A stretch of 64,000 nt of DNA, taken from NCBI GenBank assembly GCA_943787175.1, contig CALSLK010000016.1, positions 34,649-98,648 on the forward strand. The letters run 5' to 3'. Numbering within the stretch: the stretch's first letter is position 1; every line of letters starts with the position of its first letter. Made by a program: the position numbers and the translations under genes. This document shows, one piece after another, positions 43,865 to 51,138 of this stretch. This DNA is from an uncultured Alphaproteobacteria bacterium. GTDB taxonomy: Bacteria > Pseudomonadota > Alphaproteobacteria > SP197. The notes under the pieces were generated by a model. That model worked only from the letters and a program-made list of their open reading frames with translations. It made no database searches and had not been told where the DNA came from.

Positions 43865-43983
43865 TTCAGTCTGGCCGGCAAAAACACCATGGAATGAGCC
43901 ATTTTTGACTTTTCCCCGAGCTTCATTTTGGTATGTTTGAGGCGAGCGCCTGGATGGGGCTATAGACTAACACGGGGATTTAC

Positions 43984-44331
43984 ATGATCGAGAAAGACGT
44001 TGTTGGCGGGCTATCTAGCTTGGTTAACGCCAGAAAACTGACGGTCGAAGCCTATTTGCGCCAGTGTGCCTATCTGGGTGTTTCGATTTCTGCCGCACTG
44101 GTCGCCATTGGCGCGACACCTCCGGCGCAAGCCTCAACCGATACGGCTCTGGATACGCTGGAACGCGTCGTTCCGGCATCGGTCGCCATCTAGATCCAGC
44201 AGCTTGGTGAATCCGCGGCAACGGGCGCGGAAACCGACCTTGCTCAGTGGTATGACTGGGGAGATTGGGGCGATTGGGGCGACTGGGTCGACTGGGGAGA
44301 TTGGGGCGACTGGGGTGACTGGTGGAACTGA
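43984..44331 (+). pseudogene. RiPP precursor paralog 1, (WxD)9 core, in-frame TAG at 44191-44193
   Basis: Reading through the TAG gives ...[49 protein letters not shown]; leader homologous to paralog 2. Confidence 0.75.
44248..44328 (+). repeat. 9-bp coding tandem repeat, 9 units (TGG-NNN-GAY)
   Basis: Read directly from the sequence. Confidence 0.95.
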
Positions 44332-44383
44332 TCCCGATCCAGTGATGTCAGTTTTCTGACTCCTAAAATTTGTGACGACCATC

Positions 44384-44422
44384 ACGCCCGTGGCGCTACA
44401 TGCGCCGCGGGCGTAGGTTTTT
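44384..44422 (+). terminator. Terminator-like hairpin after precursor 1
   Basis: ACGCCCGTGGCGC/GCGCCGCGGGCGT stem followed by a T-tract. Confidence 0.5.
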
Positions 44423-44750
44423 CCGGTTCCCGGCGTGAAGAGCACAAGTAACGCGAAACAATTGGAGCCCGCCGGCAACGGCTTGTTCCGGGGGATAGAG
44501 GGAAAATCATGGTTGCGTTCACGGCACGAGAATTTGCGACCAGGTCACGGTTTTGCCCGGTTTCGCTTTCGATGCAGATTGCGGGTCGTCTTGGGCTCCA
44601 ACATTAACCATACTGTGCGATGACTGATAGTCGGAAGTCCGCTATCGGGGGCAATGACGGAATGTGGATGGCGATGCGGAACTATTCGGATCACGCCGCA
44701 GATCAACAACCAACGTCTGGGTCGTAAGACCAAGAACCACGGGGATTAAG

Positions 44751-45293
44751 ATGATTGAGAAAAGCATCGTTACTAACCTTTCTGGCCTGGTGAAGGAGAA
44801 GAAACTCTCCGTCCCTGCCTATCTGAAGCAATGTGCCTATCTGGGCATTTCGCTCGGTCTTGCAACAGCCGCCATTGGCATTGTTGCCAAGGCGGAAGCT
44901 TCGACCGGCGACAGCAAGACAGCGACCATGTCCGCGCTTGCCAACATCGTCTCGGCCAATGAGGCCGGTGACATTGCCAGCATCCTGCACGAAAGCGGTG
45001 TTGCCGGCGCCGAAACCGACCTCGCCCAATGGTACGACTGGGGTGACTGGGTCGATTGGGGCGACTGGGGTGATTGGTATGATTGGGCGGATTGGGGCGA
45101 CTGGGGCGACTGGGGTGACTGGGTCGACTGGGCTGACTGGTCCGATTGGTACAACTGGGATGACTGGGGCGACTGGGGTGACTGGTACGATTGGGCGGAC
45201 TGGGGTGACTGGGCCGACTGGGGTGACTGGGCCGACTGGGGTGACTGGGTCGACTGGGGTGACTGGGGTGACTGGGGCGATTGGTGGAACTGA
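44751..45293 (+). CDS. RiPP precursor paralog 2, 93-aa leader plus (WxD)29 core (GrrA/OscA-like architecture)
   Basis: ATG 44751 after GGGGA; hydrophobic N-terminal segment with AEA; GAETDLAQ junction; 87-aa core of 29 W-x-D/N triplets; rSAM gene downstream. Confidence 0.8.
45030..45290 (+). repeat. 9-bp coding tandem repeat, 29 units (TGG-NNN-GAY)
   Basis: 261 nt; every first codon is TGG. Confidence 0.95.
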
Positions 45294-45453: not shown

Positions 45454-46704
45454 ATGACACAAGTCGCATCAGAGCAGCAGACAACATCTGCGCCAAAGCC
45501 CAAGAAAAAACGGTTGCCGCCTCACAGCGTGGGCCCTTTGAACCTGCTGGTCCTGCAGCCGACACCGTTCTGCAATCTCGATTGCGCCTATTGTTATCTG
45601 CCCGGACGCACCAAAAAGGACCGTATGCCGATCGAGACGGCCGAAAAGTCCATTGTGCGCGCGATGGAATCAGGCCTGGTGGCCAAGAAATTCTCCATTG
45701 TCTGGCACGCCGGCGAACCGCTGGTGATGGAAAAGGACTGGTACCGCGAAGCCGACAAGCTGGTGCAGAAGCACTGCAAGGGCGTCGAGGTCACACACAA
45801 CTTTCAGACCAATGCCGTGCTGGTGACCGATTCCTGGTGCGATCTTTTCAAGTCCATGAACACCCGCATGGGTGTCAGCATCGACGGGCCCCAGCACATT
45901 CATGATGCCTATCGTAAGACACGGGCTGGTAAAGGCACGCACAAGTCGGTCATGAAGGGCGTTGAGTGTCTGCACAAGAATGACATTCCATTCCACGTCA
46001 TTGCTGTGGTGACCAAGGATTTCCTTCAGGATTATGAAGCCGCACTCGACTTCTTCGAGGACGTCGGCATGACCAGTGTTGGTTTCAATGTCGAGGAATT
46101 CGAGGGCAATCATGAAGATACCTCGCTCGATCACAACGCGGGAACACGCCATCTCTTCCGCGAATTCACGCGTGAATGTTACAAGCGCCATAGCGCTGGT
46201 CGATTGAACATCCGTGAAGTGCGCGAATACGAAAAGTTCATTCAGCATGCCGACAAGCCGCGCCTCATGAAGACGCAGCAGACGGTGCCGTTCCGTATCA
46301 TCACGGTCGGCCATGACGGCGACTTCTCATCCTTCTCGCCGGAACTGCATGCCATGGAAATGAACGGTGAGCCGTTTGTCTTCGGCAACGTTCACGACAA
46401 CGCCTATCTTGACGCTTTCGCCAATCCGATGTTTGCGCGTTACATGAACGAGATCATCGAGGGCTATAGCGCGTGCAAGAAATCGTGTGCCTTCTTCGAT
46501 GTCTGTGCCGGCGGTTCGCCGGGCAACAAGCAGTTCGAGCTGGGTACGATGGCTGGAACCGAAACCCTGTTCTGTGATTATCGCGTCAAGGAAACCGTCA
46601 CCATCCTGCGTGACGAGATGGGCCTGGATCCCATTGTTGATGATCATCCAGCCCTGATGCCACAGGCTTCAGCGGCTGCTGCAGAGTTCAGCAAGACCCG
46701 ATAA
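45454..46704 (+). CDS. Radical SAM/SPASM peptide maturase, GrrM/OscB-like (cyclophane-forming)
   Basis: LLVLQPTPFCNLDCAYCYLP (CxxxCxxC), WHAGEPL, VSIDGP, SFSPEL, SPASM CKKSCAFFDVCAGGSPGNK...ETLFC. Confidence 0.85.
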   Translation: MTQVASEQQTTSAPKPKKKRLPPHSVGPLNLLVLQPTPFCNLDCAYCYLPGRTKKDRMPIETAEKSIVRAMESGLVAKKFSIVWHAGEPLVMEKDWYREADKLVQKHCKGVEVTHNFQTNAVLVTDSWCDLFKSMNTRMGVSIDGPQHIHDAYRKTRAGKGTHKSVMKGVECLHKNDIPFHVIAVVTKDFLQDYEAALDFFEDVGMTSVGFNVEEFEGNHEDTSLDHNAGTRHLFREFTRECYKRHSAGRLNIREVREYEKFIQHADKPRLMKTQQTVPFRIITVGHDGDFSSFSPELHAMEMNGEPFVFGNVHDNAYLDAFANPMFARYMNEIIEGYSACKKSCAFFDVCAGGSPGNKQFELGTMAGTETLFCDYRVKETVTILRDEMGLDPIVDDHPALMPQASAAAAEFSKTR

Positions 46705-46722: not shown

Positions 46723-46760
46723 ATCCCGGCGGCGCGTCCTGCGCCTGCCGGGATTTTTTT
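46723..46760 (+). terminator. Intrinsic terminator ending the rSAM operon
   Basis: ATCCCGGC...GCCGGGAT stem followed by a T-tract. Confidence 0.8.
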
Positions 46761-46766
46761 GTGTTT

Positions 46767-47138
46767 CTAGCGCAGAAGCGGCCATGGCGAACGGAAGTAA
46801 GTCAGTCCTTCGAACATGACTCCGTCATCGCAGGTCTTGATCAACGCAGTTCCTTCAGCCGCTGTGCCCTTCAGGACCCACCAGTACCATTCAGTCAGAA
46901 TACCGTCCTTGTCCTGAATGGTGCGATCGGTCATCTCGAAATCAAAGCTGCCACCAAGCGCAGCGGCTCGCTTTGGCCAGACTGGCATATACGCCACCAA
47001 CATGTTGGCAGTAACGGGTTTGGGGTCCACGGGGTCGTCAAATCTGAAATCCCCCGTGATCGATGCCATGAGTTTTTCGGGATCTGCATGATCCCAACCT
47101 TCTATGTAGCGTGCGCGATGGGCTTCACGTGGTGACAT
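46767..47138 (-). CDS. SnoaL/NTF2-like protein
   Basis: YIEGWDHADPEKLMASITGDFRFDDP pattern. Confidence 0.6.
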   Translation of the reverse strand: MSPREAHRARYIEGWDHADPEKLMASITGDFRFDDPVDPKPVTANMLVAYMPVWPKRAAALGGSFDFEMTDRTIQDKDGILTEWYWWVLKGTAAEGTALIKTCDDGVMFEGLTYFRSPWPLLR

Positions 47139-47276: not shown

Positions 47277-47353
<77 letters not shown>

Positions 47354-49896: not shown

Positions 49897-51138
49897 ATGG
49901 AATACCGCGACGAGGTCTATTTCGAGGCGCAGCCCGACAGGGAGCAGCCGTTTTCCGATGAGGAGTTCGCCAACCGGTTGAACCGCATCCGCCAGGCGAT
50001 GGCCGAAGCCGGGATCGACTGCCTGTTCCTGTCGTCGCCCGAAAGCATGTACTACGTCGCTGGCTATGTCTGCATGTGGTACCACACTGAAAGCCCCATG
50101 GAATGGTCGGCAACCAACGGCATTGCCGTTCATGTAGACCACGACCGCTTCATCCATTTCGAGACCGAGCGAGAGGCCGTGCTGACCCGCACGTTTTCCT
50201 GTTCGAAGGACACCCGATACTTTCCCAAGACAAGCTACCGCGATGGCATTGGCTATATCGCCGATGAGCTTAAGGCTGAGGGCTGGCTGAAGGGGAATCT
50301 CGGGCTCGAAATGCATGCCATGCGACCCAATCGAGCCGTTTCCGACCGCTTCCAGGCGGCCTTTGAAAGGGCCGGCGCAAAGGTGATCGACGGCAGTGCC
50401 ATCCTGCGCGAGGTCCGTTGGGTGAAGTCACTTGCCGAGATGGAATGTCTCAAGGAGAGCGCGCGTATCGCAACGGTTGGCCTGAAGCGGGCAGCTGAGG
50501 TGTTGCGTCCGGGTGTAACCGAGCTTGAAGTCCAGGGCGAGGTGACCTGCGCCATGGCTCGGGAAGGCGGCGAGATGCAGGCACAGTTGATGCCTGTTCT
50601 GTCGGGCAAGAAGTCCCTGGCGACCCATGCCATGGCGACAAGGCGCAAGATGCAGGCAGGTGAAACTGTTGCCATTGACGTTTGTGGTGTCTTCAAGCGC
50701 TATCACATCAATGCTGCGCGTACCTTCAGCCTGGGTGAGCCAGCCGCCGATGTGAAGGACGTCACGGATCGTGCGTCGGCTGTGATGGACGTTGTGCGCG
50801 ATTGCCTGCGGCCCAACCTTCCGATTCGCGAACTGAACGAGAAGGTGAAGGCGCATTATGACAAGGAAGACCTGTGGACCAGCCGGGGCTGGATCGGTGG
50901 TTACGAGATGGGCATTTCATTCCCATCCGATTGGGTTGGGAACTTTGTCTACGATCCGCTGTCCGAGAAGAACGCCGATCGGGTGTTCGAGCCGGGAACG
51001 GCTGTGAATCATGAAATCCAGGTTTTCATGCCGCGCCATGTCGGCCAGTTCTTCATGATCGAATCATTGTTGTTCGAAGAAGACAAAGCCAGCTTTGCCA
51101 CACCCGATGTGTCGTATGCGCTGAACGTCGTGGAATAG
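49897..51138 (+). CDS. M24 family (Xaa-Pro peptidase/creatinase-like) hydrolase
   Basis: Creatinase N-domain (RLNRIRQAMAEAGIDCLFLS) plus pita-bread domain. Confidence 0.8.
   Translation: MEYRDEVYFEAQPDREQPFSDEEFANRLNRIRQAMAEAGIDCLFLSSPESMYYVAGYVCMWYHTESPMEWSATNGIAVHVDHDRFIHFETEREAVLTRTFSCSKDTRYFPKTSYRDGIGYIADELKAEGWLKGNLGLEMHAMRPNRAVSDRFQAAFERAGAKVIDGSAILREVRWVKSLAEMECLKESARIATVGLKRAAEVLRPGVTELEVQGEVTCAMAREGGEMQAQLMPVLSGKKSLATHAMATRRKMQAGETVAIDVCGVFKRYHINAARTFSLGEPAADVKDVTDRASAVMDVVRDCLRPNLPIRELNEKVKAHYDKEDLWTSRGWIGGYEMGISFPSDWVGNFVYDPLSEKNADRVFEPGTAVNHEIQVFMPRHVGQFFMIESLLFEEDKASFATPDVSYALNVVE

What the first reader, a model, noticed from the sequence alone, without database searches (positions are those of the whole stretch)
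43984..45293. Duplicated precursors with conserved termini and variable repeat number (9 vs 29)
Seen: both cores start WYDWGD and end [18 protein letters not shown]. Both leaders end GAETDLAQ but use different synonymous codons (GGCGCGGAAACCGACCTTGCTCAG vs GGCGCCGAAACCGACCTCGCCCAA). Both starts are preceded by CACGGGGATT-N3-ATG. Inference: this is an old duplication under purifying selection, with GAETDLAQ as maturase-recognition or cleavage site and fixed terminal units. The 9-bp repeat lets product length change by slippage, like a modular ruler.
Basis: partly seen in the sequence, partly recalled or inferred. Interest (0 to 1): 0.6.

Follow-up and report, generated by a model that had tools for sequence, protein, structure and literature searches.

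The report
Giant Trp-x-Asp cyclophane precursor, dead twin
Two neighbouring genes encode peptides made only of Trp-x-Asp triplets (9 and 29 units) beside an enzyme of the known family that staples such triplets into rings. The long gene is intact and its length varies between strains, while the short gene is broken here and broken differently or deleted in every relative examined.

Summary
Both cores start WYDWGD and end [18 protein letters not shown], with 9 and 29 units. Both leaders end GAETDLAQ with different synonymous codons, and both starts follow CACGGGGATT-N3-ATG.

This finding's text does not mention that copy 1 has an in-frame TAG at 44191-44193 (leader codon 70). Independent assemblies reproduce it.

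The gene just downstream (45454-46704) scores 369 bits on NCBIfam TIGR04261, cut-off 310. That family is the GrrM/OscB cyclophane-forming radical SAM enzymes. OscB is reported to link Trp-C7 to C-beta of Asp/Asn two residues on, which fits W-x-D. I read the locus as a triceptide-type RiPP (ribosomally made, enzyme-modified peptide) system with an unusually long, gap-free array.

Among 22 same-genus marine alphaproteobacterial MAGs, the long precursor and the enzyme co-occur. Complete long arrays hold 25 to 68 units, and one genome has the whole locus decayed. Copy 1 carries a different lesion in each lineage: TAG, TAA, ATG>ATC, lost start or deletion. Its ortholog dN/dS is still 0.10, so the losses are recent and independent.

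Unit number differs between near-identical strains, which supports slippage. Only [DE]-[LIV]-A-Q before the first Trp is conserved, not the full GAETDLAQ.

Verdict: a new variant of a known kind. This scan had already noted (W-x-N)n peptides beside GrrM/OscB enzymes on other DNA.

The parts
43971..43980 (+). Shine-Dalgarno-like CACGGGGATT, 3 nt before the copy 1 ATG
   Evidence: The same 10-mer precedes copy 2. In G007 the copy 1 version is altered to CTCGGGAATT.
43984..44331 (+). Precursor copy 1: an 88-codon leader plus 9 W-x-D units, interrupted by a stop. Most likely a recent pseudogene.
44191..44193 (+). In-frame TAG at leader codon 70 of copy 1
   Evidence: The same letters are in L028 and in contigs of DNA runs X3 and X6. 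No in-frame ATG, GTG or TTG lies between this stop and the core.
44248..44328 (+). Copy 1 core, 9 W-x-[DN] units. Length is polymorphic: run X6 has 2 extra WGD units behind 44274.
44384..44424 (+). Intrinsic-terminator-like hairpin (13-bp stem, 11 GC pairs, T run) after copy 1, so copy 1 looks like its own transcription unit
   Evidence: An RNA-library contig ends at 44440.
44738..44747 (+). Shine-Dalgarno-like CACGGGGATT before copy 2
44751..45293 (+). Precursor copy 2, intact, 180 aa: a 93-aa leader plus 29 units
44751..44900 (+). Leader residues 1-50, the most conserved part. It looks like a signal peptide: basic N-region, 17-19 hydrophobic residues, then invariant A-x-A|S-T.
   Evidence: Alignment A1. 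Judged by inspection only; no signal-peptide predictor was available.
45015..45029 (+). Leader-core junction T-D-L-A-Q. [DE]-[LIV]-A-Q is conserved in all long copies, and A/V-Q-W is also seen in a distant (W-x-N)n family.
45030..45290 (+). Copy 2 core, 29 contiguous W-x-[DN] units (27 D, 2 N). Holds exact in-register direct repeats of up to 34 nt.
45454..46704 (+). GrrM/OscB-family cyclophane-forming radical SAM maturase, 416 aa. C40-x3-C44-x2-C47 plus four invariant C-terminal Cys.
46736..46762 (+). Terminator-like hairpin with T run after the maturase

Best explanation
This is a minimal triceptide-type RiPP cassette in an uncultured marine alphaproteobacterium.

**Proposed mechanism (inferred).** Copy 2 (44751-45293) is the working precursor. 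Its core is nothing but 29 back-to-back Trp-x-Asp/Asn triplets. The GrrM/OscB-family radical SAM enzyme encoded just downstream would abstract a hydrogen from C-beta of each Asp/Asn and join it to the indole of the Trp two residues before. In OscB this position is C7. The result would be one three-residue cyclophane per unit, so almost every core residue would sit inside a ring. The conserved N-terminal half of the leader looks like a Sec signal peptide with an A-x-A|S-T cleavage site. That would explain why no protease or transporter gene accompanies the pair. The [DE]-[LIV]-A-Q|W junction is a candidate recognition or trimming site.

**Length variation.** The 9-bp units carry exact in-register repeats of up to 34 nt. 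Slippage or unequal recombination therefore changes unit number often (25-68 units seen). The interior is free to vary, while the first unit W-Y-[DN] is fixed.

**Copy 1.** Copy 1 (43984-44331) is an old paralog with its own ribosome-binding site and terminator. It was kept by selection until recently. It is now a pseudogene here (TAG at codon 70) and is being lost independently in each lineage.

**Shown versus inferred.** Shown: the sequence features, enzyme family membership, co-occurrence and co-decay of peptide and enzyme, length polymorphism, and the lesions. Inferred: the chemistry, export, cleavage and function.
For: **Enzyme**
- TIGR04261 scores 369 bits against a cut-off of 310. It is the only copy in the genome.
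- The review PMC11002830 states that OscB links Trp-C7 to C-beta of Asn or Asp at i+2.

**Core**
- Trp is in register at every third residue, with D or N at position 3, in 25-68 units across seven complete arrays.

**Coupling of peptide and enzyme**
- The long precursor lies directly upstream of the enzyme in G000, G007, G014, G011 and G002.
- In G018 both precursor copies and the enzyme are decayed.
- Neither gene was found in the other same-genus genomes searched, apart from G021. There the precursor is cut by the contig end and the enzyme was not found.
- A second alphaproteobacterial family has (W-x-N)5-6 precursors of the same layout, followed by a TIGR04261 enzyme scoring 418 bits.

**Selection**
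- Ortholog dN/dS is 0.07 for copy 2 and 0.10 for copy 1.

**Copy 1 lesions**
- TAG at codon 70 in G000, L028, X3 and X6.
- TAA at codon 76, an altered ribosome-binding site and a W>C change in G007.
- ATG>ATC in L030, which is 97.8% identical to G007 in DNA.
- Lost start plus TAG at codon 5 in G014 and L032.
- Clean deletion in L029.
- Decay in G018.

**Length changes between near-identical DNA**
- +18 nt in X6.
- One 9-nt unit is the only indel in 3.9 kb between G014 and L032.
- 29 versus 38 units in L029.

**Other**
- No conserved protease or transporter gene lies beside the pair in G000, G011 or G002.
- Contigs from two RNA libraries cover copy 1, copy 2 and the enzyme. They do not cover ogt or the spacer. 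This is a weak hint of transcription.
Against: - No chemistry was measured. Nothing shows that 29 adjacent motifs can all be cross-linked; characterised triceptide precursors named in the papers read carry 3-5 cross-links.
- The precursor matches no Pfam or NCBIfam model, including at E up to 10. It is therefore not a member of the described GrrA/OscA precursor family.
- Pfam found no SPASM domain, and only four C-terminal Cys are invariant. The auxiliary cluster set may differ from that of the characterised enzymes.
- The signal-peptide reading rests on inspection alone. The N-region is unusually long and conserved, so it could instead be a membrane anchor or the enzyme's recognition sequence.
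- Copy 1 has dN/dS 0.10 and appears to be transcribed, so a residual role cannot be excluded. In G014 a gene caller predicted a 92-aa product from a TTG start (P0007).
Confidence: 0.7

Rival explanations
1. Copy 1 is still functional. The stops and weak starts are leaky through readthrough or alternative initiation, and they act as a throttle that keeps a second, short product at a low level.
For: - Ortholog dN/dS is 0.10 despite dS 0.65.
- Each lineage mostly carries single-nucleotide lesions rather than frameshifts.
- Both nonsense codons lie within 7 codons of each other, and both are followed by A.
- RNA-library contigs cover copy 1.
- A gene caller predicted a TTG-started product in G014 (P0007).
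Against: - TAG is an ordinary stop in this genome; ogt ends in TAG.
- No in-frame start codon lies between the stop and the core.
- G007 also has an altered ribosome-binding site and a W>C change in the core.
- L029 has deleted the gene outright and G021 lacks it.
- The copy 1 N-terminal region changes faster than that of copy 2: 7/62 versus 1/67 residues, p = 0.03.
- Two clustered stops are not statistically remarkable, given how few codons can mutate to a stop.
Confidence: 0.12
2. The array is a multi-core cassette and not one long product. After cross-linking it would be cut between units into many copies of small cyclic W-x-D tripeptides. Unit number would then set yield, not length.
For: - Unit number varies freely without apparent cost.
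- The units have no spacers.
- Repeat precursors cut into uniform pieces by a protease are known for the WprA/WprP2 system (abstract of PMC12957482, listed).
Against: - No protease gene is conserved beside the pair.
- The first unit (WY[DN]) is conserved across all arrays, and the last unit (WWN) within the closest clade. This suggests the ends matter.
- Cutting between two adjacent rings with no spacer has no precedent that I could find.
Confidence: 0.15
3. The W-x-D protein is an ordinary secreted acidic repeat protein. It is not modified by the neighbouring enzyme, and the adjacency is incidental.
For: - The precursor has no family match.
- The leader looks like a plain signal peptide.
Against: - The two genes are strictly adjacent in five genomes, and they decay together in G018.
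- The repeat matches the motif reported for OscB.
- A distant family shows the same pairing.
Confidence: 0.04
4. The two copies, or the TAG, are assembly or sequencing artefacts of a repeat-rich region in a metagenome-assembled genome.
For: - The genome is a MAG in 38 contigs.
- Short-read contigs break inside the copy 2 array (records 13 and 14).
Against: - The leaders differ at 47% of residues.
- L027 and L028, from two other metagenomes, are 100% identical to the window over 1.9 kb each. They include the TAG and the 29 units.
- Contigs of runs X3 and X6 keep the TAG.
- Orthologous two-copy loci exist in G007 and G014.
Confidence: 0.01

Closest known systems
GrrA/GrrM = OscA/OscB triceptide system (NCBIfam TIGR04260 precursor, TIGR04261 maturase; Nguyen et al. 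2020 Nat Chem, as cited in PMC11002830)
   Same: - The maturase passes the curated TIGR04261 cut-off.
- The substrate motif is Trp-x-Asp/Asn, the motif on which OscB forms Trp-C7 to C-beta links.
- The precursor gene sits directly upstream of the enzyme.
   Different: - The precursor does not match TIGR04260.
- The array is gap-free and 25-68 units long, not a handful of motifs in a Gly-rich region.
- The host is a marine alphaproteobacterium, not a cyanobacterium.
- The leader has a strongly conserved signal-peptide-like half.
- Only four C-terminal Cys are invariant in the enzyme.
(W-x-N)5-6 precursors with TIGR04261 enzymes in another alphaproteobacterial family
   Same: - Same layout: signal-like N-terminus, helical middle, A/V-Q-W junction, contiguous Trp triplets.
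- The enzyme lies directly downstream and scores 418 bits.
   Different: - Only 5-6 units.
- Asn instead of Asp at position 3.
- Unrelated leader sequence.
- A C-terminal tail follows the array.
Repeat-type radical SAM RiPP precursors such as WprA (three WPR motifs, PMC11851443) and TvgA (TVGG repeats giving poly-cyclopropylglycine, PMC9062424)
   Same: One radical SAM enzyme acts repeatedly on a short motif repeated along one precursor.
   Different: - Different enzyme families and different chemistry.
- Those motifs are separated by spacers and are few in number.
- Those clusters carry partner proteins, proteases or transporters.
Contingency loci: tandem-repeat length variation by slipped-strand mispairing in bacterial surface genes (general knowledge)
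   Same: An in-frame short tandem repeat whose copy number differs between near-identical strains.
   Different: Here the change alters product length and does not switch the gene on or off. No link to host or phage interaction is known.

Membership tests
GrrM/OscB cyclophane-forming radical SAM maturases (TIGR04261) | Score above the curated cut-off of the family model | tested here: met
   369.1 bits against a cut-off of 310, covering model positions 1-360 of 363.
GrrM/OscB cyclophane-forming radical SAM maturases (TIGR04261) | CxxxCxxC radical SAM cluster motif | tested here: met
   C40-NLD-C44-AY-C47, invariant in five aligned relatives. Pfam PF04055 E = 7e-19.
GrrM/OscB cyclophane-forming radical SAM maturases (TIGR04261) | SPASM-type C-terminal auxiliary Fe-S cluster cysteines | tested here: inconclusive
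   Four invariant C-terminal Cys (C341, C345, C351, C374), enough for one cluster. Pfam gave no SPASM match at E <= 0.01.
Triceptides (three-residue cyclophane RiPPs) | Precursor with aromatic-x-x motifs encoded next to the enzyme | tested here: met
   29 contiguous W-x-[DN] units end 160 nt upstream of the enzyme gene. The same arrangement holds in four other genomes.
Triceptides (three-residue cyclophane RiPPs) | C-C bond between the aromatic ring of residue 1 and C-beta of residue 3 | not testable with these tools
   Needs co-expression, mass spectrometry and NMR.
GrrA/OscA precursor family (TIGR04260) | Match to the family model | tested here: not met
   No NCBIfam hit for the whole protein, the leader or the copy 1 tail, even at E <= 10.
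Sec signal peptide | Basic N-region, hydrophobic core and A-x-A cleavage motif | tested here: inconclusive
   All three are present by inspection. A48-x-A50-S51-T52 is invariant in seven leaders. No predictor was available, and the N-region is unusually long (28 residues) and conserved.
Pseudogene (copy 1) | A disabling lesion that is real and not a sequencing error | tested here: met
   The TAG is reproduced in L028, X3 and X6. Independent lesions or deletion occur in G007, L030, G014, L029 and G018.

The most novel reading that the evidence does not exclude
The copy 2 product would be a protein-sized chain of 25-68 fused three-residue cyclophanes, with essentially every residue locked in a ring. 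It would be exported by the general secretion pathway as a rigid, strongly acidic rod, for example for cation binding or as envelope material. Its length would be tuned at population level by repeat slippage. That would be a material-like RiPP without precedent among characterised triceptides.
Probability: 0.25. Interest if true: 0.75.

Novelty: new variant of a known kind. Interest (0 to 1): 0.5.

Why it matters
Triceptide chemistry has been characterised on peptides with a few motifs. This locus offers a natural substrate with 29 adjacent motifs, and relatives reach 68. It tests whether one radical SAM enzyme can work processively along a whole polypeptide.

The gene pair is small enough to express directly. 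The natural series of 25-68 units, plus short broken paralogs, is a ready-made set of length variants.

The repeated independent loss of the short paralog, against a background of recent purifying selection, is a tidy small case of parallel gene loss in wild marine populations.

Tried and rejected
- **Assembly duplication:** rejected.
- **TAG as a sense codon:** rejected, because ogt ends in TAG.
- **Restart after the stop:** no in-frame ATG, GTG or TTG lies between the TAG and the core.
- **Recent gene conversion between the two cores:** rejected. The shared C-terminal 18 codons differ at most synonymous sites, and the longest shared exact stretch is 22 nt.
- **Clustering of nonsense codons at codons 70-76 as a programmed feature:** only two unbiased cases exist. 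P0009 ends near codon 72 but may be cut by a contig end. Not significant, so dropped.
- **Known RNA element in the 418-nt spacer:** no Rfam match.
- **Sigma-70 promoter scan:** nothing found.
- **Conserved partner genes:** none shared between G000, G011 and G002.
- **ESM Atlas:** only unnamed clusters scoring below 0.9.
- **Leader tree:** deep forks are unresolved, so I cannot say whether copy 1 of G014 is orthologous to copy 1 of G000.
- **L026 (Bryobacteraceae):** a weak hit with no Trp repeat.
- **Tool limits:** All sequencing runs were available only as contigs, so allele frequencies at the TAG and true repeat-length distributions could not be measured. No contig spans the whole copy 2 array in X3 or X6.

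Full report
**1. Observation**

The window holds two genes on the + strand, 43984-44331 (copy 1) and 44751-45293 (copy 2).

- Copy 2 translates to an open 180-residue protein, with a 93-residue leader and a core of exactly 29 triplets. Trp is at every first position and Asp (27) or Asn (2) at every third.
- Copy 1 has an 88-codon leader and 9 such triplets.
  - the shared core start WYDWGD;
  - the shared end [18 protein letters not shown];
  - GAETDLAQ encoded with different synonymous codons;
  - CACGGGGATT three bases before each ATG.
- Tandem Repeats Finder reports the 9-bp period.
- This finding's text does not mention that copy 1 contains an in-frame TAG at 44191-44193, at leader codon 70. 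Another note of this scan (e1-5223595) does record it.

**2. Neither the duplication nor the TAG is an artefact**

- The two leaders are only 53% identical, with synonymous divergence near saturation (dS 1.13).
- Two contigs from other metagenomes are 100% identical to the window over about 1.9 kb each. L028 carries copy 1 with the TAG, and L027 carries copy 2 with 29 units.
- Contigs of two further DNA runs from different studies (X3, X6) cover the TAG without change.
- TAG is a normal stop in this genome, since the ogt gene just upstream ends with it.

**3. What the locus is**

- The ORF 160 nt downstream of copy 2 (45454-46704) scores 369 bits on NCBIfam TIGR04261, cut-off 310. This model is [quoted passage not shown].
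- The enzyme has the C-x3-C-x2-C motif. It is the only such gene in the genome, and the two precursors are the only ones.
- A review (PMC11002830) summarises OscB as forming C-C links between Trp-C7 and C-beta of Asn or Asp at position i+2. The core here is a pure run of that motif.
- The precursor matches no Pfam or NCBIfam model even at E = 10.
- A profile of seven leaders found only five fragmentary hits among 1.84 billion representative proteins, all from this same gene family. The enzyme therefore belongs to a known family, and the precursor type is not catalogued.

**4. Relatives**

The genome is an uncultured marine alphaproteobacterium; titles of related records read "Rhodospirillaceae bacterium" or "Alphaproteobacteria bacterium" MAG.

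- Among 22 same-genus genomes, the long precursor sits directly upstream of an intact enzyme in G007, G014, G011 and G002.
- In G021 the precursor is cut by a contig end.
- In G018 both precursor copies and the enzyme are riddled with stops and frameshifts.
- Neither gene was found in the other same-genus genomes searched.
- This co-occurrence and co-decay is the main evidence that peptide and enzyme work together.
- No protease or transporter is shared by the loci.
- A pattern search in 400 genomes of the class found a second family with (W-x-N)5-6 precursors of the same layout, followed by a TIGR04261 enzyme scoring 418 bits. The contiguous Trp-triplet design is thus wider than this genus. 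What sets this genus apart is the enormous expansion of the array.

**5. Leader anatomy**

- In the alignment of seven long-copy leaders, the invariant positions are concentrated in residues 1-52. These form NLSxLV..KL..AYLxQCAYLGxSL, a hydrophobic stretch, then A-x-A-S-T.
- By inspection this is a signal peptide with a long, unusually conserved N-region.
- Residues 53-88 vary.
- At the junction only [DE]-[LIV]-A-Q is kept. "GAE" is not conserved.
- A/V-Q-W also precedes the array in the distant (W-x-N)n family. The junction is therefore a fair candidate for recognition or trimming, but the N-terminal half is at least as good a candidate for enzyme recognition.

**6. Length variation**

- Copy 2 has the following unit counts:

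| Source | Units |
|---|---|
| P0004 | 25 |
| G007 | 26 |
| G000, L027 | 29 |
| G014 | 37 |
| L029 | 38 |
| G011 | 47 |
| G002 | 68 |
| L031 (cut by contig end) | at least 20 |

- Copy 1 has 9 units here but 11 in run X6, in otherwise near-identical sequence.
- Copy 1 has 10 units in G007 and 15 in L030, which are 97.8% identical in DNA.
- Copy 1 has 5 units in G014 and 4 in L032. There the 9-nt unit is the only indel in 3.9 kb at 99.7% identity.
- The array holds exact in-register repeats of up to 34 nt.
- The first unit W-Y-[DN] is the same in every array. The last unit WWN is shared only within the closest clade.

**7. Fate of copy 1**

Between G000 and G007, copy 1 has dS 0.65, dN 0.067 and ratio 0.10. 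This is far from neutral (Fisher p = 2e-11) and not distinguishable from copy 2 at 0.07. Yet no intact copy 1 was found anywhere:

| Lineage | State of copy 1 |
|---|---|
| G000 population | TAG at codon 70 |
| G007 | TAA at codon 76, two changes in the ribosome-binding site, Trp>Cys in the core |
| L030 (same species as G007) | Sense codon GAA at codon 76, but ATG>ATC start |
| G014, L032 | Lost start, TAG at codon 5, junction Q>G |
| L029 | About 390 nt holding the gene is cleanly missing |
| G021, G011, G002 | No copy 1 |
| G018 | All three genes decayed |

- From the ratio, copy 1 can have evolved neutrally for only a small share of the G000-G007 divergence. My rough estimate is under about 12%.
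- Its N-terminal region already changes faster than that of copy 2 (7/62 versus 1/67 residues, p = 0.03).
- The simplest reading is an old paralog that was useful until recently and is now being lost independently in each lineage.
- It has its own ribosome-binding site and a strong terminator at 44384-44424.
- Contigs from RNA libraries still cover it. This is weak evidence of transcription, because contigs cannot show strand or level.
- A leaky, throttled copy 1 cannot be excluded and is listed as a rival.

**8. Mechanism and product**

- Shown: family membership of the enzyme, motif match, genetic coupling, purifying selection on copy 2 and the enzyme, and length polymorphism.
- Inferred: cytoplasmic cross-linking of each W-x-D unit, Sec export and signal-peptidase cleavage, and the nature of the final product.
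- The product would be either one acidic poly-ring chain or, less likely, many small cyclic tripeptides.
- The papers read describe 3-5 cross-links per precursor. Whether 29-68 adjacent sites can all be processed is the open and interesting question.

**9. Verdict**

The duplication is old, past purifying selection is real, and slippage is real. Copy 1 is now dead, and the proposed GAETDLAQ site shrinks to [DE]-[LIV]-A-Q.
- This is a new variant of a known kind: GrrM/OscB-type triceptide systems.
- The scan had already seen (W-x-N)n peptides beside GrrM/OscB enzymes on other DNA (e1-1113747). The pairing itself is therefore not new. The size and hypervariability of the array and the parallel loss of the short paralog are new.

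Noticed in passing
window 45454-46704; alignment A2: The maturase and four relatives share only four invariant C-terminal cysteines (C341, C345, C351, C374), and Pfam finds no SPASM domain. This alphaproteobacterial GrrM group may carry one auxiliary Fe-S cluster rather than two.
   Followed up: partly
L034:1219-1572 (+), L035:1483-1833 (-); enzymes L034:1628-2749 and L035:306-1424: Another alphaproteobacterial family (G313, G160) has (W-x-N)6 precursors with a signal-like N-terminus and a V-Q-W junction. A TIGR04261 enzyme (418 bits) lies directly downstream and overlaps the precursor's end in another frame.
   Followed up: partly
L033:1477-1809 (-), L037:1483-1806 (-) (genome G428): One genome holds two (W-x-N)5 precursor genes at separate sites. 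One lies next to a B12-binding radical SAM protein (BchE/PhpK-like hits). The other has no radical SAM gene within 1.5 kb. No GrrM-type enzyme lies beside either one.
   Followed up: no
L017:7900-10400 (genome G018): A whole-cassette pseudogene. Copy 1 has several stops and 4 units. Copy 2 is frameshifted and its array has collapsed to about 2 units. The maturase carries at least five stops.
   Followed up: yes
L019:3948-5672 (-) (genome G002): A DDE transposase gene lies about 1 kb beyond the maturase in the genome with the longest array (68 units). This hints that the cassette can sit in mobile context.
   Followed up: no
window 44270 and 44274: In runs X3, X6 and the RNA-library run X15, the third unit of copy 1 reads WVD instead of WGD (G>T), together with a synonymous T>C change. 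This is a population variant of the already broken gene.
   Followed up: partly
protein P0009 (73 aa, from the representative library): A further copy-1-like fragment with a divergent N-terminus (YLRQRIYLG in place of YLRQCAYLG). It ends two residues after the position of the G000 TAG.
   Followed up: no
window 47277-47353: A tRNA-Arg (CCG) gene lies about 570 nt downstream of the cassette. A SnoaL-like ORF on the opposite strand lies between them (46767-47138).
   Followed up: no
window 49897-51138 and L018:6339-7502: An M24 peptidase (creatinase/prolidase type in L018 by Pfam) lies within a few kb of the cassette in both G000 and G011, although their synteny otherwise differs. For the window ORF, similarity was judged by eye only. 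This is probably coincidental.
   Followed up: no
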